Virus record (IMG/VR): IMGVR_UViG_3300008255_000099
Location: 64,001-128,000 of that record
From: a virus
Length of the DNA: 64,000 bases
Reading direction: 5' to 3' (one strand)
In this document: positions 2,782 through 16,625 of the stretch, one piece after another
Layout of the letters: every line of letters starts with the position of its first letter
Position numbering within the stretch: the stretch's first letter is position 1
Made by a program: the position numbers and the translations under genes
The notes under the pieces: model-generated
What the model was told of the DNA's origin: nothing
Seen by the model: only the letters and a program-made list of their open reading frames with translations
Database searches by the model: none

Positions 2782-3043
2782 GTTGGCTCTCTGCCCGCAG
2801 ATCTAGATCGTGTTTGACGGACAGGATGTCTTATCAGGAGGCGTTGGCTCTCTGCCCGCAGAGCTAGATCCCGCCTAGAGGCCAGCAAGGCCACAGGCAA
2901 AAGGTTGGCTCTCTGCCCGCAGAGCTAGATCGTTCGACACGAGGTTCGGCAACATCTGCGAGCAGTTGGCTCCCTGCCCCCGCAGGGCTAGATCACCGTG
3001 GTCTCGCAGCAATTCGTCGATGTCGAGGTTGGCTACTTGCCCC
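2782..3043 (+). CRISPR. CRISPR mini-array without cas genes: 4 full repeats plus 1 degenerate, 4 spacers of 33 bp
   Basis: Repeat GTTGGCTCTCTGCCCGCAGAGCTAGATC (28 bp) at 2782, 2843 and 2904, a 30-bp variant at 2965, and a truncated copy at 3028; unique spacers at 2810-2842, 2871-2903, 2932-2964 and 2995-3027; internal hairpin CTCTG/CAGAG; 61-bp period as in type I-E-like arrays. Confidence 0.92.
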
Positions 3044-3852: not shown

Positions 3853-4806
3853 TCAATCTGCCATTGAAATAAGACCAATTTTTCTAGAATCACGCAAAAC
3901 CATACAAATTTCCTCACAAACAACCATAGCATATTCTTCAACCTCATTCGTTAAAGAAGTATTGCATGTCCATAATTCATTTCTGTCAATTTTGATATCA
4001 ATAAAACCTAATTGAGAAGATTTCGGCAAAACCAAAATCTTACGCTTTGGCATCAATGTGCTCTCAACAACATCGCCAAAATCTTTGAGCCTCTCACTAA
4101 ATTTAAATTCAGTATTAATTAAAAACTTGTCAACATTTCCACCATAACCCTCAATAGTTTCAGAAATTGTTTTGATAATCATATCAAGATCTTTTTCACA
4201 CGCATCCTCCCAACGATGATACTCAGGTTTTTTACCGTTTTTTGCAGCTAAATCTGTAAGAACAGAAGAATAAAGCAACACAATCACTTTCAAATCTTCT
4301 TGCTCATTCAAGCGATTGTTAGCCCTAAACCTTGCTAACTGTGAATAACAAAAACCATAATCTTTCTTCCAACGAGGATTCGTGGCTAAATGAAAATAAA
4401 CAGGTTCAAAAGATTTGTCCGAAGTTGGCCAAAATTTTGGCACGTTAGATGAAGAACAATATTGATAACTTGAAATAAAATCTTCCTCAATTAAACTCTT
4501 AAGATCTGTTTTTGTTGGAGATTTAAATTGAATTCTTTCAGTTTGATTTAAAAGAAGCCCATCCTCATAAACATCAAAAATCTTTCTTGCTAAATTTGGT
4601 GTTTGATCTTGAACTTTCTTTGCTTCTTTATCAGTTAATAAAAAACATCTAATTGAATTGCGAATCAATTGGCTAACTGGCACATCAAATTTTTCAGAAG
4701 ACTTTTTTAAATCATTAAGATAATTTTGCTCAATTCTAAAATTATATTGAACAAGCTCATCATCCTCAATCGCCTCAAAACCTTCAACATTTTCAGCTTC
4801 CGACAT
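3853..4806 (-). CDS. RHH domain fused to a diverged major-capsid-protein paralogue
   Basis: N-terminal VQYNFRIEQNYL...VPVSQLIRNSIRCFL (RHH). The remainder aligns by eye, in order, with MCP 6151-7005: FHLATNP/FEIACNP, RANNRLNEQEDLKV/RAKDSIQRQEDLEV, DVVESTLMPKRKILVL/DIHVSTMVPKNSIYVL, VVCEE/VIYEE. Confidence 0.78.
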   Translation of the reverse strand: MSEAENVEGFEAIEDDELVQYNFRIEQNYLNDLKKSSEKFDVPVSQLIRNSIRCFLLTDKEAKKVQDQTPNLARKIFDVYEDGLLLNQTERIQFKSPTKTDLKSLIEEDFISSYQYCSSSNVPKFWPTSDKSFEPVYFHLATNPRWKKDYGFCYSQLARFRANNRLNEQEDLKVIVLLYSSVLTDLAAKNGKKPEYHRWEDACEKDLDMIIKTISETIEGYGGNVDKFLINTEFKFSERLKDFGDVVESTLMPKRKILVLPKSSQLGFIDIKIDRNELWTCNTSLTNEVEEYAMVVCEEICMVLRDSRKIGLISMAD

Positions 4807-4852
4807 GATTAATCACCTCTTTCTTAAATCCAAACATAGATGAACACAAAGA

Positions 4853-4930
4853 TATAACCAGAGCTATAACCAAAGCTATAACTAAAACTATAACCAGAGC
4901 TATAACCAAAGCTATAACTAAATCTATACA
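4853..4930. repeat. Tandem array of six 12-bp units (2 x 36 bp), candidate operator or iteron array
   Basis: tataaccagagc tataaccaaagc tataactaaaac tataaccagagc tataaccaaagc tataactaaatc; intergenic, between the -10 box and the RBS of the RHH-capsid gene. Confidence 0.85.
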
Positions 4931-4935
4931 AGTGA

Positions 4936-4947: not shown

Positions 4948-4960
4948 TTGCAAAAAACAA

Positions 4961-4995
4961 ACAAAACCCACAAGGAAATTCCTTGTGGGTTTTGT
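4961..4995. terminator. Intrinsic terminator after the homing endonuclease gene
   Basis: acaaaacccacaagga-aat-tccttgtgggttttgt. Confidence 0.8.
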
Positions 4996-5002
4996 TTTTC
5001 AA

Positions 5003-5923
5003 TTATTCTTTATCTAATTCTTTATTTTCTGTGCCATCATCTATAAACTGTTGAATGTTATCAATAATTTCATTTGCCGAATTATTATTCTCAATATTTT
5101 TTGCTAAATCTTTTATTTGTGATAATAGTAAAAATGTTTTTTTATTAATCTTATTTTTAGTTTTAACATGTTTATTTTCTTTTATATCAAATTTATATTC
5201 CATACCCTCTGGTGCAATTAAATTAGGTGATAAAATTTTATAATCTTCTGATGGTATAAACAAAAACCAATGATCTAATGATTGTCTATATTTTTTTTCA
5301 AATGTAACACCAAATTTATCAGAAAAAAATTCACACATTAATGTATGTTCTTCTTCTGTAAAGCAATAAGTAGATATTCTACATCCTTGCCCATGCCTAC
5401 CACCATCATCTGATATTGCCATAGAAAGACCTAAATAATCAATCTTATTTAACCAATATTCAGTAACAACTTTTTTAGTAGAAGATTCATATATTTCATC
5501 ATAAATATTTTTCCAAATTTTATGATATGGAGTATATAATTCCGTTCGTAAACTATCGCCAGATTGCGTGTCATATAGTTTGGGATTCCATCTTTTTAAT
5601 AAATTTGCTTTAAATTCTAATAATGGTCTCTGAACTCTTGTGTGACATTCTCTATAATTATATTCAGTCCCCTTTTGAAGATTTATAGTTCCATCACCTA
5701 ATAAAGAACCATAAACAACTTGTTCTTCTTCATAATTTAATTCGGTTGGTAAATTAAATCTATAAACACTCTTCCTATCTCTTGATGGAAAATCTAAAGT
5801 TTGTAATTTACTTTTAAGAGATATCTTACTTCTACCAAGTTCGGTAGCTATATCTTCTAATGGCATACAATCATCCCACATTTCTCTAAATTTTTTCAAT
5901 TCTTCCTTTGTCCATTCAGCCAT
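5003..5923 (-). CDS. Free-standing two-motif LAGLIDADG homing endonuclease with N-terminal HTH
   Basis: VVYGSLLGDGTI and LGLSMAISDDGG motifs, RISTYCFTEEEH; N-terminal WTKEELKKFREMW...LEDIATELGRS is HTH-like; own TATAAT at 5964-5969 (minus strand). Confidence 0.85.
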   Translation of the reverse strand: MAEWTKEELKKFREMWDDCMPLEDIATELGRSKISLKSKLQTLDFPSRDRKSVYRFNLPTELNYEEEQVVYGSLLGDGTINLQKGTEYNYRECHTRVQRPLLEFKANLLKRWNPKLYDTQSGDSLRTELYTPYHKIWKNIYDEIYESSTKKVVTEYWLNKIDYLGLSMAISDDGGRHGQGCRISTYCFTEEEHTLMCEFFSDKFGVTFEKKYRQSLDHWFLFIPSEDYKILSPNLIAPEGMEYKFDIKENKHVKTKNKINKKTFLLLSQIKDLAKNIENNNSANEIIDNIQQFIDDGTENKELDKE

Positions 5924-6017
5924 AATAATTCACTTTCAAGGACCACTGTCGTGTCCTATTTGGATTATACCTCAATCCTCGGAAAACACCGTAGTCATAA
6001 TTATATTTTTTTTGTTC

Positions 6018-6062
6018 TATGAGGGGATTGGTATGGCTGTTATTAATGATTACCCAAAAGGT
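6018..6062 (+). other. Inverted fragment homologous to the 3' end of the major capsid gene
   Basis: The plus strand reads YEGIGMAVINDY versus MCP YEELGIAVINDY; 27/36 nt identical to the MCP coding strand (6178-6213), with 7 of 9 differences at third codon positions. Confidence 0.85.
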
Positions 6063-6076
6063 AGTTCGTGGTAACA

Positions 6077-6110
6077 AAGAAATCCCCCGGAAGCTTCCGG
6101 GGGATTTCTT
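6077..6110. terminator. Perfect 34-bp palindrome, terminator after MCP
   Basis: aagaaatcccccggaag|cttccgggggatttctt. Confidence 0.85.
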
Positions 6111-6150: not shown

Positions 6151-7005
6151 CTATCCAATTACTATTTTAGCTGTTGCATAATCATTTATCACGGCAATTC
6201 CAAGCTCCTCGTAAATTACCCATCCTAGTCTTAATGCTTTTGGATCATCTGCTGGAAGAACGGTAATGTCCTGTCTTACCGGCATTGCTCCAACGAATTC
6301 ACCTGGGGCTAAAACATAGATTGAGTTTTTTGGAACCATTGTTGAAACGTGAATGTCTGCGGTCCATAAGTGTCCGTAAAGACCTGACATTAAAACATCT
6401 CTCTGAGTTGCCTCATCGAAAAAGTCTTTCCCCCATGCTCTCACGTCCTTATATCTAAATGGATGGCAAACAATTTTTGCACCGACAAGCTCGTGCTCTT
6501 CGATAAGAGCTAATGCGAGATTTATGTTGTCGGGTGAAAGGTTCCCCGAAACGGTTACTGTATGATCTGTTGATACAGCGACAGAGATTGCTTTGAAAAC
6601 TTCGAGGTCTTCTTGGCGTTGGATGCTGTCTTTTGCTCTCACTTGGGCACGATCTACGATGTAGTATCGTCTTGCTCTGATTTCATTCAACTTGATAGTT
6701 GGATTGCAGGCAATTTCAAAAGTGGGAACTAACAGTTCCTCTGCTTCTACCATCATATCAGGCACAGAACCACGTTTTGGAATAACGTAAGAAGTGACTG
6801 CGATATCTCTTTCATATCTTGGCAAAGCGCCTTGCGGCAGTTCGTCAACCATCAAAAGCTTGCGCCCGATGGCCTGATACTCAAGAGAAATCTTGATTGG
6901 TTCAACCATTGCTTGCGCCAGGGCAACACGGCCTTCGCCGGTTTCCAAAGCTTGTGCAATGATCTCTTCCTTTTGCTCATTGATATTTCTCTTGACAAGA
7001 CTCAT
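6151..7005 (-). CDS. Major capsid protein (HK97 fold)
   Basis: GRVALAQAMVEPIKISLEYQAIGRKLLMVDELPQGALPRYERD, FEIACNP, QEDLEVF and YEELGIAVIN resemble jumbo-phage MCPs; last gene of the protease-scaffold-decoration run; strong AGGAG RBS; followed by a terminator. Confidence 0.85.
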   Translation of the reverse strand: MSLVKRNINEQKEEIIAQALETGEGRVALAQAMVEPIKISLEYQAIGRKLLMVDELPQGALPRYERDIAVTSYVIPKRGSVPDMMVEAEELLVPTFEIACNPTIKLNEIRARRYYIVDRAQVRAKDSIQRQEDLEVFKAISVAVSTDHTVTVSGNLSPDNINLALALIEEHELVGAKIVCHPFRYKDVRAWGKDFFDEATQRDVLMSGLYGHLWTADIHVSTMVPKNSIYVLAPGEFVGAMPVRQDITVLPADDPKALRLGWVIYEELGIAVINDYATAKIVIG

Positions 7006-11075: not shown

Positions 11076-14000
11076 TTAATATAGAGCTATAATTTCACTG
11101 ATTACCTTACCGTCTTCAGCCTTAGTTTTAGCTACTGCAACATTAAAGCAAGAATTGCAATAGATTTTAGTTTTATCTTTTCCTGCAACTCTTCTTAATT
11201 TATGTCTTTCTCCACAATATGGGCAAACATGACCAACACTCATTGGTTTCCCTGGTTGGGTTTTTTCACCATAATTCATTGCTGTCTTGATAAAATCGTC
11301 AGGGTTTGTGACCCATGAGATTTTAACAGCAAGTGGATTCTCACCAGCTAAAACAGTTCGTCTTTCACTCTTAGCTAATCCTGGTAATGGTGCCCCGCCT
11401 GGGCCTCCGGCCCCTGGTAAACCACCGCCCATGCCACCGGCTGCTGCTCCTGGGGCTTGTGCGCCCATCTCTGCGCCTCCCGGCTCGGCTCCTGGGTTAA
11501 GTTCTTCTCCTAGCCCAAGGCCCTCTTCTGGGACTTCCTCTTCTGACATTGAATTTCCGCCAGATTCGAAGTTCTCTGGATTTATGATTTTAATATCGAA
11601 TGTATATTCAAATTCTGTTGAACATGAATTACATTGTCCATGACCTTCTGCTAAATCAACATCTGTTGATCCACAAGCAGGACAAATAGAGCCGGGTGGA
11701 GCAATTTCTCCTGGTGTGGGCAAAGATTCCTCTGGGGAAACTTGACCTTCTTCTCCCACTGGTTCACCGCCGCCACCACCTGTTATTGCTGATAAGCCAT
11801 CTCCACCTAATGCGCCTGCTGCCGGATCTGCGCCCGGACCAGCCGCCATCGGATCTCCTCCCATTGGTGCGGCACCTTGCATTGCTCCTGGCATTGCTTG
11901 TGCTGCTTTTAATAAATCTCTTCTAGAAGAGCTTCTCTTTTTTAACATTCCGTCAGAAAAGATATCAATTTTATTATCTGCAACTACACCAAGCGCAACG
12001 CCTTCTTCTGGTGCTGGATCACTTTGTAAAGTTCTTGTTATGCTACTTTTTATAACTCCACAAACATCACCATTTTCTGAGATGTTTAATTCTGTAAATG
12101 TCAGGCTATCTGGATCTGAAAGTTCATAGCCTCTATTGGCAAAAAGTTGAATAACGTATGGTTTAACTTTACTTTCTAATTCAGAATCATCTTTTCTACA
12201 ACCACATTCATTTAGATTAAAAGAAACTCTAAATTCTCTATCTGATCTATCTGTGATTGTGGCTGCGTTTTTAATAAAATTAATTTTTGCTTTTGTAGCA
12301 TCAGAAATTAATTTCTTTGATGTCGCTGGATACGCTGATAAGCATTCAACAGCCTTTGCGATTGTTGGACTTGAAATATCATTTTGATTAGCAACATCAG
12401 CGATATTTCCCACAAGATTCTCTATGACAGATTGTTTATCTGTTATTTCAGCGAGTTTTATATTCCAGAAAGAAGCTCTTTCTTTTATTGCAACACGCTT
12501 ATTTGTCGCATCTTCTGTCCTTGCAGATTCAATTTCTCTTGAGAGGTCTTCTGTTTTCAAAGAAGCAACAACTTCAAGAATGTCTTGGGCTGTGCTTTCG
12601 GTATCAAAAACAGTATCAGCAAGAGCAACAACACTATGCTTTAAGTGCTCACTACTAAGTTTTTCTTCTTTACCAGGATCAAGAGAGCCAACAAATGCTT
12701 TTTTAATATCATCTGTTCTATTACCCCTTTGAAGAATAGTATCTTTTGAGATATTGTTATCAACTATTAATTCTTTTGCTAATTTTTCAATAGTTTTTAC
12801 ATATTTATCTTTATCAATTGATGCAATTAACTTTATACCTTCTGAAAGATCTATTGGCATAACTTCTTCTGAAGCTACATCAGCTAAAGATCCAACAATA
12901 TAATCTTCTAAAGCTTTATCTGAAACAGAGGCAATCTTTTGGCCGATGGATCGGTTAAATGATTGTCTTTCTCTCCAATCTCGTCTTGCTTTTTTGAGAT
13001 TTGGAGTTGTATTCTCTGAAATCTTTTCATTTAAATCTTCAGTTGAAGATAATTTAATTGCAGATTCTATTATTTCCATTGGGCTTACAGCAGCATCCAC
13101 AATAGCTTTCGCAATTGCATTATTTAATGATGCTACAACTTCTTTTGCGGTTGATGAACCTGATCTTTTTGCTTCAAGTCTTTGCTCGTGAACAGTGTTG
13201 TCTGTGCCTCTCCTTGAATCTTCGAGTTTATGCTCTTGGACATCAACTTCAAATCCTTGTCTACCCAATTCACCTTTTGGGTTATATTTTTCAAGTCTTT
13301 GTTCGTGAACTGTATTGTCCACACCCGTTCTAGAATCTTCAAGTCTTTGTTCGTGGACTGTATTATCGACTTCTTTTCTAGCTTCTCCGACATAATTCTC
13401 TTCTGGATATACTGGATTACCTAATCTACCAGTGGGATATTCTTCGGTTTCATCTTGAAATCTAACTTCTGTTTGTCTTTTAGGGACTTCTGCTTCTCTT
13501 TTAGCAGTTTTTATTGTTCCTTCTTTTTCAGCCATTTTTAATTGACCTAGTAATTCGCCAGTAACAGAAGATATTTCACCCTCAGCAAGTCTTTCGAGTT
13601 GTTCGTCGCTAATGGATGGAGTCCATTCAATTTCTGAACCCTTGAAATACCCTTTTATTTCTCCACGAGAAGAGATAGCAACTTTGAAAGAGCCTTGCTC
13701 TTTCTCATACTTATCTACGATCTGATCAGTGTACTGATCTTTAATGATCTGAGATAGTTTTACGAAATTATCCATATCTTTCTTCTCCTTGTCTGAATAT
13801 TTATTTTTCATTTTCTTAAATATTTCAAAACCACCTATTTTAGTTTTATCCATATTTTTAGATGCTGACATTTGTAATCCAACATCACCAGCAGGAGCAT
13901 ATTCTTGTATTTGTGGTTGTGGTGGTGGTTGTTGACCATTTGTCATTCCTGCTTGATCAGGACTTTGTGTTAACCCGATTGGAATATTAGTTCCAAATGC

Positions 14001-16625
14001 TTCTGGTTTAAATCCATCATCAATTAGATTGCTAACAACCTCTTGAACACCAGCAAGATGTTTTGTTAAATCGCTAACATGCTCCATATTAACATTTCTT
14101 CTCTTACCTATAAGATCCACAACAGTTGCTTCAAGAATTTTTTGAGCTAAATCCATCTTATTTAGTTCATCCAATCTTTGCATTAATTCAAATACAGATT
14201 GTTTGGTTTGTGCTTGTTCATCTCCAGCAGATGGAACTGGAACATCGGGGGCCATTCCTTCAACTCCCGGTGCTGTGCTACCATCTGCTCTTGAACTAAC
14301 AGGCTCAATATTCATAAATTGATCTGCTGGACTTTCCAAATCGTTTGTTGATAATGCCTGATTATTAAAATCGGGGATTGGTTCCTGAGACGATTTGAGC
14401 ATTTTAGATTTTGAGTTAGCTATTTTTTTAATGTCATCATTAATATTTATTACATCAATAATTACATTCCTAATTTCATCAACATCATTTATTTCAGGAT
14501 CATATAAAGCTTCTCTCGCTAAATTATTAATTTTTTCAGAAGTTTTAGATATTACACCAATTTTTTGAAGAATTTCTTCTGTGGGAAGAATCTCCTCAAC
14601 CTCACAAGCTTCAAAAGCTCCATCTGAAACTGCTGAAAGCTCTATGAATTTAACTCCATAGTTAATCTCATAAACTGGTGCGTCTTGAAATTTTTTGCCA
14701 TTGACAACCCCTGAAAATTTTCTGCCCTTGTGCTCTTTAACATGGGTACAATACTGATCTTCACTTTTTGCTTGATGACCACAAATTGAGCATTTTGAGA
14801 AGTCTACCGAGCAATTTTTTGTAGCACAATTTTCAACTATATAACTATGGCTATCATTTTCTGTTTCAAAGTTATAAACTATTCCCTCATAGTCATCTAA
14901 TTCTATGTTAGAAATTTTTCTTAATAAATAGTTCTCTATATCTCTGAAATATTTTTTGTTAGAAAAATTACCAACAAATCCTGTATATTCTGATATTAAA
15001 GAACAATAAGTTGAGGGAATAGATATTGTATAAAAAATCCTTTTACGATTTTCACCACGAAAACTATTTGGATATTCTTTACTATCTGAATATCTTACAA
15101 ATTTTCCTTCTATTCCGCTTGAGATAGTGTGATAAATACCACAAGAGTTTAGCATAAAATGTAATTGTTCTGCTAATTCTCTTGAAACTGTTACTCCTTG
15201 AAGTGTATCAGGATCTTTTCTGTTAACAAGAATTCTTATACAACCATCTCCATTTAGCCAAGCACCTATAATATGTTTTTTAATTTCAGAATTTGCAAAT
15301 AATAATTCATTTTTAAGTTTTTTATCACAGGAATATCCACCACAATTTACATATAAAAATTCTATTACTTCTTTCGATGAGGTATAAACATCGAAAGTAT
15401 TTTTATCTAATTTTTCTCTGGTACTACAATCAACATTAAATTGATTTTTTATAATATCAATAACTTCTTGTGCTAATGTGTTTTTTTCATCTAGTGCAAA
15501 TGTGAATACTGCTTGTGAAAGTTTATCTTTATACTTTGTGTAAGAACCTTCAGCTAGAAAATATCCTATTAATCTTGCAAGATCATTATTTATGTCAGAT
15601 TCTACTTGTTCTATCTCTTTTGGAAATAATAGGAAATCTCCTGGTTTCAATAATCTAGATTCTTTTTCATCTATTTCTATTTTACCTTTTAAATTTCGTA
15701 TTAATTTTGTTTTTAAAATTTCTTCATCAGAATATTCTGATATAGAATTATAAACATTTTGATGATGTCCGACTTTAAATCTTTTTTCATATTTCGTTGA
15801 TGGTTGATTAGAAACATTTTGGTCTAACTCTTCGCCACATCCACATAAACAATATTCTTGAACTTTTAAAGTTGGGAACTTATGATTTGGTGTACATTTA
15901 ATTGTTTCACCACCTTCAAGTTCTATTTTTAAAGTATCACCAATATAATATCTTCTTTGTCTATTAGTAATTTTTGAAAATTTTCCATCACCATCGACAA
16001 GGATATCTTCTATTTCTATGTCTTCAACATTTTTATATCCATTAGATGTTAAAATTCTTGTTCCGGGTAAAAAACATCCCATTGAAACATCATGAATATA
16101 TCCTTCTTTAACTCCTCTTGCTAAAGAAGGATAAGCTTCTGAGTCAATATAGAAAGTGCAGTAAACACACTTATCTTTATCGTCCCATTCTGCAAAAACA
16201 ACTTTTCCTTTAGCTTCCTCAATATTATCATTCTTATGATTTGTATAAATTGGAACGCCTTCAAAGGTTTTGAAGGCAGGAATTTTCCCCTTTTTTGGTC
16301 CAGCATCTACTTCTTCAAGTAATTGTTCTTCTTTGAACATATCTCCGTTTTCATTTGGAACGTTTGCATCAATAGATCTTGCCCTAACCCATAAAAATGA
16401 ATTAGGTCTTTTTTGCATTTCGTCTATTACAGGGGTGCCTTCATATCTTTTGATTAATTCTTCAACATCAACTTCCACATTGTTAGATGTAGATGTTGAT
16501 TTTGATATTTTAATCATTTTATTCTTTGAAGAATCTTCTTCAATGACACATACCACCTGCAATGGAATATTAGGTCCACGCTTAACTAACACAGGAGCCT
16601 CCTTGATTTTTAAAAAACTAACCAT
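11076..16625 (-). CDS. Prohead (capsid maturation) protease polyprotein, intein-containing
   Basis: NENGDMF, PIYTNH (His) and IHDVSMG (Ser) fit HK97-type/SH-clan prohead proteases; long C-terminal extension with repeats and zinc ribbons. Confidence 0.8.
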   Translation of the reverse strand: MVSFLKIKEAPVLVKRGPNIPLQVVCVIEEDSSKNKMIKISKSTSTSNNVEVDVEELIKRYEGTPVIDEMQKRPNSFLWVRARSIDANVPNENGDMFKEEQLLEEVDAGPKKGKIPAFKTFEGVPIYTNHKNDNIEEAKGKVVFAEWDDKDKCVYCTFYIDSEAYPSLARGVKEGYIHDVSMGCFLPGTRILTSNGYKNVEDIEIEDILVDGDGKFSKITNRQRRYYIGDTLKIELEGGETIKCTPNHKFPTLKVQEYCLCGCGEELDQNVSNQPSTKYEKRFKVGHHQNVYNSISEYSDEEILKTKLIRNLKGKIEIDEKESRLLKPGDFLLFPKEIEQVESDINNDLARLIGYFLAEGSYTKYKDKLSQAVFTFALDEKNTLAQEVIDIIKNQFNVDCSTREKLDKNTFDVYTSSKEVIEFLYVNCGGYSCDKKLKNELLFANSEIKKHIIGAWLNGDGCIRILVNRKDPDTLQGVTVSRELAEQLHFMLNSCGIYHTISSGIEGKFVRYSDSKEYPNSFRGENRKRIFYTISIPSTYCSLISEYTGFVGNFSNKKYFRDIENYLLRKISNIELDDYEGIVYNFETENDSHSYIVENCATKNCSVDFSKCSICGHQAKSEDQYCTHVKEHKGRKFSGVVNGKKFQDAPVYEINYGVKFIELSAVSDGAFEACEVEEILPTEEILQKIGVISKTSEKINNLAREALYDPEINDVDEIRNVIIDVININDDIKKIANSKSKMLKSSQEPIPDFNNQALSTNDLESPADQFMNIEPVSSRADGSTAPGVEGMAPDVPVPSAGDEQAQTKQSVFELMQRLDELNKMDLAQKILEATVVDLIGKRRNVNMEHVSDLTKHLAGVQEVVSNLIDDGFKPEAFGTNIPIGLTQSPDQAGMTNGQQPPPQPQIQEYAPAGDVGLQMSASKNMDKTKIGGFEIFKKMKNKYSDKEKKDMDNFVKLSQIIKDQYTDQIVDKYEKEQGSFKVAISSRGEIKGYFKGSEIEWTPSISDEQLERLAEGEISSVTGELLGQLKMAEKEGTIKTAKREAEVPKRQTEVRFQDETEEYPTGRLGNPVYPEENYVGEARKEVDNTVHEQRLEDSRTGVDNTVHEQRLEKYNPKGELGRQGFEVDVQEHKLEDSRRGTDNTVHEQRLEAKRSGSSTAKEVVASLNNAIAKAIVDAAVSPMEIIESAIKLSSTEDLNEKISENTTPNLKKARRDWRERQSFNRSIGQKIASVSDKALEDYIVGSLADVASEEVMPIDLSEGIKLIASIDKDKYVKTIEKLAKELIVDNNISKDTILQRGNRTDDIKKAFVGSLDPGKEEKLSSEHLKHSVVALADTVFDTESTAQDILEVVASLKTEDLSREIESARTEDATNKRVAIKERASFWNIKLAEITDKQSVIENLVGNIADVANQNDISSPTIAKAVECLSAYPATSKKLISDATKAKINFIKNAATITDRSDREFRVSFNLNECGCRKDDSELESKVKPYVIQLFANRGYELSDPDSLTFTELNISENGDVCGVIKSSITRTLQSDPAPEEGVALGVVADNKIDIFSDGMLKKRSSSRRDLLKAAQAMPGAMQGAAPMGGDPMAAGPGADPAAGALGGDGLSAITGGGGGEPVGEEGQVSPEESLPTPGEIAPPGSICPACGSTDVDLAEGHGQCNSCSTEFEYTFDIKIINPENFESGGNSMSEEEVPEEGLGLGEELNPGAEPGGAEMGAQAPGAAAGGMGGGLPGAGGPGGAPLPGLAKSERRTVLAGENPLAVKISWVTNPDDFIKTAMNYGEKTQPGKPMSVGHVCPYCGERHKLRRVAGKDKTKIYCNSCFNVAVAKTKAEDGKVISEIIALY
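14814..16076 (-). mobile_element. Intein (421 aa) with LAGLIDADG endonuclease in the prohead protease
   Basis: SMG|CFLPGTRIL...VYNFETENDSHSYIVENCATKN|C; LIGYFLAEG and IIGAWLNGDG blocks. Confidence 0.92.

What the first reader, a model, noticed from the sequence alone, without database searches (positions are those of the whole stretch)
6018..6062. Inverted, synonymously diverged piece of a capsid gene upstream of a homing endonuclease
Seen: plus-strand TAT GAG GGG ATT GGT ATG GCT GTT ATT AAT GAT TAC (YEGIGMAVINDY) versus the MCP coding strand TAC GAG GAG CTT GGA ATT GCC GTG ATA AAT GAT TAT (YEELGIAVINDY). That is 27/36 nt and 9/12 aa identical, with 7 of 9 differences at third positions; 6 of the next 9 nt also match. 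The third-position bias means it derives from another phage's MCP gene rather than from a local inversion. It lies between the MCP terminator and the endonuclease promoter. Known: free-standing homing endonucleases cut neighbouring genes of relatives, and T4 I-TevI represses itself through a target-like operator. Inference: (a) a target-mimic operator or decoy for this LAGLIDADG, revealing its target in rival capsid genes; (b) an antisense or guide-like small RNA against a competitor's capsid mRNA; or (c) a repair scar that captured cleaved rival DNA.
Basis: partly seen in the sequence, partly recalled or inferred. Interest (0 to 1): 0.82.

Follow-up and report, generated by a model that had tools for sequence, protein, structure and literature searches.

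The report
Capsid-site mimic before homing nuclease
A large groundwater phage keeps a flipped 36-base look-alike of the end of a rival's capsid gene just in front of a selfish DNA-cutting gene; a sister phage keeps the same piece, so it most likely marks the site the enzyme attacks and serves as a binding pad that limits the enzyme's own production.

Summary
Observation confirmed: 27/36 nt, 7 of 9 differences at third positions, best match in the genome, identical in four assemblies. It is not a one-off. The sister phage L189 (MCP 96% identical, same nuclease family) has an inverted 12-codon copy at the same place. The two copies differ at 9/36 positions, 7 of them third positions, with no indels, and the L189 copy has no start codon. 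Two more family members (L255, L087) carry inverted MCP-end pieces; five lack one. The nuclease is an I-SceI-like LAGLIDADG with an N-terminal helical domain, always 3' of this MCP. An unrelated Hef-like family in the same slot has shorter target-like motifs in 8/8 loci, against 2/63 non-nuclease loci. Best reading (0.55): a rival allele's MCP end, captured during homing and kept as a target-mimic binding site, working like the I-TevI operator but for a free-standing gene and upstream of the main promoter. Rivals: repeated functionless scars (0.25), RNA (0.10), decoy (0.07). No near-exact donor (best 29/36); binding and expression untested. This scan noted the same pattern on other genomes; I found no paper describing it.

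The parts
6018..6053 (+). 12-codon inverted mimic of the MCP 3' site (codons Y265-Y276); putative nuclease binding site
   Evidence: homologous 36-mer at L189:1006-1041
6054..6076 (+). 3' flank of the mimic; can fold back on it (15 of 17 pairs, 4 G-U); weakly similar to the L189 flank; possibly the decayed rest of the captured MCP end (not significant)
   Evidence: z -2.2; flank-flank p 0.086, flank-MCP p 0.23
6077..6110 (.). Perfect 15-17 bp hairpin, bidirectional intrinsic terminator between the MCP end and the mimic
6151..7005 (-). Major capsid protein gene, 284 aa (PHROG 2522; 53% identical to Bacillus phage G gp27)
6178..6213 (-). Resident allele of the mimicked site; inferred target region, presumably resistant to the phage's own nuclease
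   Evidence: resistance is inference
5003..5923 (-). Free-standing LAGLIDADG_2 endonuclease gene, 306 aa: N-terminal three-helix (HTH-like) domain, I-SceI-like two-motif core with D77 and D172/D173 invariant in the family, and a 55-aa C-terminal tail absent from homologues
5964..5969 (-). TATAAT (-10) box of the nuclease gene, 48 nt from the 5' end of the mimic (42 nt in L189); lies inside a small hairpin 5962-5978
   Evidence: consensus match only
6000..6005 (-). Second TATAAT box; the mimic would cover its -25 to -60 region
   Evidence: consensus match only
5940..5956 (-). Small hairpin in the nuclease leader, just upstream of the ribosome-binding region
4959..4997 (.). Perfect 19-bp hairpin (terminator) downstream of the nuclease gene

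Best explanation
The nuclease is a free-standing homing endonuclease that cuts rival phages' capsid genes in the last conserved codons (about V263-Y276). Shown: its family always sits right 3' of this MCP. Inferred: the target. During homing at this hotspot a rival allele's 3' end was captured and ended up inverted next to the terminator. Shown for other loci: displaced 3' ends exist. Inferred: the exact route to this inverted geometry. The 36-bp core has since been kept because the nuclease binds it. The protein reads mainly first and second codon positions, so third positions drift although the DNA is non-coding. Bound nuclease, sitting between the capsid terminator and the nuclease promoter, damps its own expression, either by occluding the upstream promoter region or by blocking read-through from the strong capsid operon (inferred; works like the I-TevI operator).
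For: (1) Same inverted 12-codon piece, at the same place and of the same extent, in sister phage L189, whose MCP third positions are only 49% identical and whose terminator is different. (2) The two mimics share 22/24 first and second positions with no indel; 7 of 9 differences are at third positions (p 0.008 if drift were neutral). They share four identical codons, including a 9-nt run found in 0 of 113 natural alleles, which favours one origin followed by constrained drift. (3) Not coding: an in-frame stop and no start codon upstream in L189. (4) Homing endonucleases tolerate changes at all wobble positions (PMC3159444). (5) L255 has an inverted MCP end directly before its nuclease start, with the two Glu codons deleted; L087 has a 16-nt copy next to a TATAAT box. 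(6) Unrelated Hef-like nucleases in the same slot: 8/8 have a target-like motif in the spacer, in both orientations and several registers, against 2/63 non-nuclease loci (Fisher p 4e-9; core mismatches 6/2/15 by codon position). Orientation independence fits a DNA site. (7) The second Glu codon is often the altered one (Gly here, deleted in L255, Gln in L035, L065, L236, L059). (8) A private Thr at codon 7 of the site occurs only in nuclease-carrying hosts L087, L090, L091, L093, as expected of a resistant allele. (9) Precedent: I-TevI operator, 15/20 nt identical to its homing site (PMC2988022).
Against: No binding, cleavage or expression data. The mimic lies about -61 to -96 from the main promoter and does not overlap it as the I-TevI operator does. 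Five of nine family loci (L090, L093, L095, L105, L108) have no mimic, and two other LAGLIDADG families in the slot have none above threshold (0/9 and 0/9). The L189 mimic keeps both Glu codons. In L087 the piece lies downstream of the nuclease gene. The window's and L189's nucleases are not clearly sisters (44% identity over 79 aa; L189 groups with L090 at 83/83 support on a partial sequence), so the mimic may track the phage rather than the enzyme. Five of the eight Hef-like motifs include a promoter-like heptamer that alone reaches the score in 8/70 control sites, and the Hef-like loci are kin. 36 bp is longer than an I-SceI-type site and needs the extra helical domain to explain it.
Confidence: 0.55

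Rival explanations
1. Functionless scars. Homing at this hotspot repeatedly displaces and flips MCP 3' ends, for example by recombination between palindromic terminators or fold-back at the quasi-palindromic V-I-N-D-Y codons. The window and L189 pieces are independent or refreshed captures from different alleles and are simply decaying.
For: Direct-orientation displaced 3' ends follow inserted genes in L051 and L004 (both LAGLIDADG), L009 and L221. The nuclease gene occurs in both orientations. L087's piece follows the nuclease stop codon and is identical to its own MCP. Each mimic translates to a different real allele of the sister clade (Met versus Val at codon 6). 40% of natural allele pairs differ by 9 nt or fewer and 12% share an 11-nt run. 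Many family members lack the piece.
Against: Same position, orientation and length in two phages with saturated synonymous sites. Shared codons absent from 113 natural alleles. No near-exact donor; the co-occurring phage L255 matches only 23/36. Enrichment of motifs before Hef-like genes.
Confidence: 0.25
2. The piece works as RNA: antisense in read-through capsid transcripts against a competitor's capsid mRNA, or a short sense-strand RNA (target copy, hairpin, terminator) acting as a guide or ligand for the nuclease.
For: The fragment-sense strand folds better than the other in both phages (-12.5 versus -7.0 and -10.7 versus -4.7 kcal/mol; z about -2.2 and -2.4). In L087 a TATAAT box lies 7 nt before the 16-nt copy and the terminator follows it. 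A CATAAT lies at 5996-6001 (+).
Against: The hairpin register differs between the two phages. Only 1-2 of 9 mismatches to the resident mRNA are G-U. No matching competitor allele, even in the co-occurring phage (23/36). No conserved promoter on the fragment strand. No Rfam family reaches its threshold. The protein is an ordinary protein-guided I-SceI fold. Motifs in the Hef-like loci occur in both orientations.
Confidence: 0.1
3. The site is bound but is not a transcriptional operator: it is a decoy or parking site that titrates nuclease (own or invading) away from the resident capsid gene, or an intragenomic repair template.
For: It lies away from the main promoter; it is always inverted relative to the MCP, which is stable against deletion; it may track the phage lineage rather than the enzyme.
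Against: One site per genome titrates little. Use as a repair template would put Gly at a position that is Glu or Asp in 280/280 MCPs. Three of four pieces lie in the nuclease's upstream region.
Confidence: 0.07

Closest known systems
I-TevI operator (T4 td intron; putative operators of I-TevII and I-TevIII), Edgell et al. 2004 as reviewed in PMC2988022
   Same: A homing-site look-alike upstream of the endonuclease ORF; about 75% identity to the target; proposed binding without efficient cleavage.
   Different: Here the gene is free-standing and LAGLIDADG rather than intron-encoded GIY-YIG. The mimic is 36 bp, inverted, derived from a foreign allele, and about 50 nt upstream of the main -10 box instead of overlapping it. 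Nothing is tested biochemically.
Free-standing phage homing endonucleases (T4 seg/mob, Hef; segD between capsid genes 23 and 24), PMC2988022; enrichment near capsid genes, PMC10448857
   Same: Intergenic nuclease gene beside an essential conserved gene, patchy among relatives, several nuclease families sharing one hotspot, sometimes in antisense orientation.
   Different: I found no target-like operator reported for free-standing genes in these papers; the target here can be read from the sequence.
Gene-end-replacement endonuclease cassettes of fungal mitochondria (e.g. Allomyces atp6; from my own knowledge, not checked in a paper here)
   Same: The cassette brings a new 3' end and leaves the old end displaced; this layout is seen at L051, L004, L009 and L221.
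   Different: In the window the piece is inverted and upstream of the nuclease, not direct and downstream.
I-SceI / I-WcaI monomeric LAGLIDADG endonucleases (PDB 1r7m, 6x1j)
   Same: Best fold matches (E 1e-11 to 1e-10); two acidic-motif helices.
   Different: About 20% identity; an extra N-terminal three-helix domain; free-standing in a phage.

Membership tests
Free-standing LAGLIDADG homing endonuclease | LAGLIDADG fold with catalytic acidic residues | tested here: met
   Pfam PF03161 E 5e-19; D77 and D172/D173 invariant; Foldseek I-WcaI and I-SceI
Free-standing LAGLIDADG homing endonuclease | Intergenic, next to a conserved essential gene, patchy among relatives | tested here: met
   All close homologues with upstream context lie 3' of the MCP; most of 123 MCP loci hold other genes there
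Free-standing LAGLIDADG homing endonuclease | Cuts the allele lacking it and spares the resident allele | not testable with these tools
   Only indirect: private Thr allele in four carriers
I-TevI-type autorepression operator | Sequence resembles the homing site | tested here: inconclusive
   It resembles the MCP 3' codons; that these are the homing site is inferred
I-TevI-type autorepression operator | Overlaps the promoter that drives the endonuclease | tested here: not met
   48 nt (window) and 42 nt (L189) upstream of the main -10 box; overlaps only the upstream region of a second TATAAT
I-TevI-type autorepression operator | Lacks the cleavage determinant | tested here: inconclusive
   Second Glu codon altered in the window and deleted in L255, but intact in L189
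I-TevI-type autorepression operator | Bound by the enzyme, and binding represses transcription | not testable with these tools
   Needs binding and reporter assays
I-TevI-type autorepression operator | Endonuclease is intron-encoded GIY-YIG | tested here: not met
   Free-standing LAGLIDADG
Gene-end-replacement cassette | Old 3' end left in direct orientation downstream of the nuclease gene | tested here: not met
   No such copy in the window; met at L051 and L004
CRISPR spacer / OMEGA-type guide | Flanking repeats or a conserved scaffold, and a RuvC or HNH effector | tested here: not met
   The genome's own 28-bp array repeat matches only 14/28 near the fragment; no Rfam hit at threshold; the effector is LAGLIDADG
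CRISPR spacer / OMEGA-type guide | A discrete transcript | not testable with these tools
   No RNA holder listed

The most novel reading that the evidence does not exclude
The slot is a single-entry memory: a short RNA or DNA element that is periodically overwritten with the capsid-gene allele of a competing phage and directs or tunes the neighbouring LAGLIDADG nuclease (or silences the rival's capsid mRNA), i.e. a captured-target guide for a non-RuvC, non-HNH nuclease.
Probability: 0.06. Interest if true: 0.92.

Novelty: new variant of a known kind. Interest (0 to 1): 0.55.

Why it matters
If true, target-mimic autoregulation, shown so far for intron-encoded I-TevI, extends to free-standing phage nucleases of at least two unrelated folds at one capsid-gene hotspot. 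It also gives a way to read an unknown homing endonuclease's target directly from its leader, which is normally hard for free-standing genes. It names a concrete 36-bp substrate for a new I-SceI-like enzyme, and shows codon periodicity preserved in non-coding DNA by protein recognition.

Tried and rejected
Misassembly: rejected. Chance: rejected. Recent local inversion of the resident gene: rejected; Ile and Met codons match other alleles, not the resident one. Small peptide from the + strand (an ATG at 6033 with a GGGG-like Shine-Dalgarno): rejected, because the L189 copy has no start codon and an in-frame stop upstream. CRISPR spacer: rejected. Donor search: pattern scans of viral contigs were empty; a scan for MCP-plus-inverted-copy pairs was empty; best natural allele 29/36. 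An apparent family-wide excess of short hits 100-200 nt behind the MCP is partly the reverse complement of a promoter heptamer; after controls it holds only for the Hef-like loci. 'YVYEEVG' hits 1-2.5 kb downstream in freshwater loci lie inside an unrelated conserved ORF. That the 23-nt flank is the decayed rest of the MCP end is not significant, so I do not use the core-versus-tail contrast as evidence. No RNA holder listed, which is no evidence on expression. The nuclease tree is unresolved at the relevant nodes. Phage G has no mimic behind gp27. Literature searches found no report of operators for free-standing LAGLIDADG genes; the library is incomplete.

Full report
Observation. Window 6018-6053 (+) matches the MCP coding strand at 27/36 nt and 9/12 aa, 7 of the 9 differences are at third positions, and 6 of the next 9 nt match. 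It is the longest inverted repeat of the region, the best match in the 183-kb genome (next 23/36), and beyond 2000 shuffles (maximum 24). Four assemblies are identical over the whole spacer, and contigs of three runs cover the fragment without variants or joints.

Anatomy. On the minus strand the order is: MCP (6151-7005; PHROG 2522; 53% to phage G gp27), a perfect terminator hairpin (6077-6110), the inverted piece, two TATAAT boxes (6005-6000 and 5969-5964), a leader hairpin, the 306-aa nuclease (5003-5923) and a second terminator (4959-4997). The nuclease is Pfam LAGLIDADG_2. Its model (pLDDT 86) has an N-terminal three-helix domain and a core whose best solved matches are I-WcaI and I-SceI. 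The acidic residues of both motifs are invariant in the family.

The nuclease family lives at the MCP 3' end. Every close homologue with upstream context sits directly behind the same MCP, co-oriented (L093, L095, L105, L189; L108 behind a second LAGLIDADG gene) or convergent (L087, L090, L255). Among 123 distinct MCP loci this slot holds several nuclease families or unrelated genes, so it is a homing hotspot. Some insertions left the old MCP 3' end in direct orientation behind the inserted gene: L051 and L004 (both LAGLIDADG), L009 and L221. These relics begin within about codons 263-273, which points to cutting in this region. A Thr at codon 7 of the site occurs in only four of 280 MCP sequences, all carriers of this nuclease family, as expected of a resistant allele, although these four form one clade.

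The piece is conserved. The closest relative, L189 (MCP 96% aa, 49% identity at third positions, different terminator), has the same nuclease family and an inverted 12-codon copy at the same place (L189:1006-1041). It differs from its own MCP at 9/36 positions (8 third) and from the window's copy at 9/36 (7 third, no indel; p 0.008 under position-neutral drift). It cannot be translated, having an in-frame stop and no start upstream. The two copies share four whole codons, including a 9-nt run seen in none of 113 natural alleles, which favours one origin; however, 12% of natural allele pairs share an 11-nt run somewhere, so this is not proof. Their peptides equal real alleles of the sister clade, but no DNA allele is closer than 29/36, and the related phage from the same samples (L255) matches the window's copy at only 23/36. 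L255 itself has an inverted MCP end (5207-5270) directly before its convergent nuclease gene, with the two Glu codons deleted. L087 has a 16-nt copy, identical to its own MCP, between the nuclease stop, a TATAAT box and the terminator. All four pieces are inverted relative to the resident MCP; three lie in the nuclease's upstream region. Five family loci have none.

A parallel case. An unrelated Hef-like family (PHROG 3339; 37-82% identity among members) in the same slot has a motif resembling the V-I-Y-E-E-V-G codons in the spacer in 8 of 8 loci, against 2 of 63 loci without a nuclease (Fisher p 4e-9; members are kin, so this overstates independence). The motifs occur in both orientations and at 11-93 nt from the start codon; core mismatches fall 6/2/15 on codon positions 1/2/3. 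Five of the eight include a promoter-like heptamer, which alone reaches the score in 8 of 70 control sites; L035, L037 and L041 do not. Two other LAGLIDADG families show no motif above threshold.

Mechanism. Shown: a non-coding, codon-patterned copy of the MCP's last conserved codons, kept at one position in two phages and recurring near related and unrelated nucleases. From established knowledge: homing endonucleases read mainly non-wobble positions (PMC3159444), and I-TevI represses itself through a homing-site look-alike (PMC2988022). Inferred: the piece came from a rival allele during homing and repair, was flipped (the nuclease gene itself occurs in both orientations, and the site and the terminators are palindromic), and is retained as a binding site. 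Because it lies about 50 nt upstream of the main -10 box and right behind the capsid terminator, repression would act on the upstream TATAAT or as a roadblock to read-through. I put this at 0.55. Repeated functionless capture is the main rival (0.25). RNA models (0.10) rest on a modest strand-biased hairpin whose register is not conserved and on the L087 promoter; pairing to the resident or the co-occurring capsid mRNA is poor. A decoy role gets 0.07.

Comparison and novelty. It works like the I-TevI operator but fails two defining features (intron-encoded GIY-YIG enzyme; overlap with the main promoter), so I do not file it as a member. The nuclease is an ordinary new member of the free-standing homing endonucleases, which are known to cluster near capsid genes (PMC10448857). 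I found no paper on target-mimic sites of free-standing genes. This scan has noted the same layout on other genomes; those notes are unchecked, came after my own analysis and are not counted as support. Verdict: real, a new variant of a known kind, directly testable, interest 0.55.

Noticed in passing
window 3853-4806 (-): RHH domain fused to a diverged MCP paralogue (hhalign to the MCP alignment: 170 columns, 26% identity, E 0.003). L108 has a similar RHH plus MCP-piece ORF at 6474.
   Followed up: partly
L105:5724-6631: Three small ORFs, each carrying a different piece of the MCP (middle, C-terminal, N-terminal), 3 kb behind the MCP gene.
   Followed up: no
L002:4960-5040: Direct-orientation 39-nt relic of MCP codons about 87-99 just behind the MCP terminator, a different site from the one studied here.
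   Followed up: no
window 4836-4931: Six or more tandem 12-bp units between the promoter and start of the RHH-MCP paralogue gene.
   Followed up: no
window 2782-3043: Orphan CRISPR-like mini-array (28-bp repeat, 33-bp spacers); a similar repeat pair near window 2860-2925 has a second copy elsewhere on the minus strand scan. Its repeat does not flank the fragment.
   Followed up: partly
window 5003-5170 (-): The nuclease has a 55-aa C-terminal tail (two predicted helices) absent from all homologues, suggesting a recombination junction after the conserved Y-K-F end.
   Followed up: no
L059:4880-5100; L053 and L058, same region: Two or three weak direct copies of the I-Y-E-E motif upstream of another LAGLIDADG_2 family; each is below the score threshold.
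   Followed up: partly
L042:5071-6903; L005:5066-7261: LAGLIDADG domains fused to N6/N4 DNA methyltransferase domains in the slot behind the MCP.
   Followed up: no
L254:3955-4887 (phage G gp28): The cultured relative phage G has a zinc-finger protein with a weak endonuclease-I-like hit in the same slot; no mimic was found.
   Followed up: partly
window 11076-16625 (-): The 1849-aa head-protease-like ORF contains an intein with a LAGLIDADG-like motif (read from the sequence).
   Followed up: no
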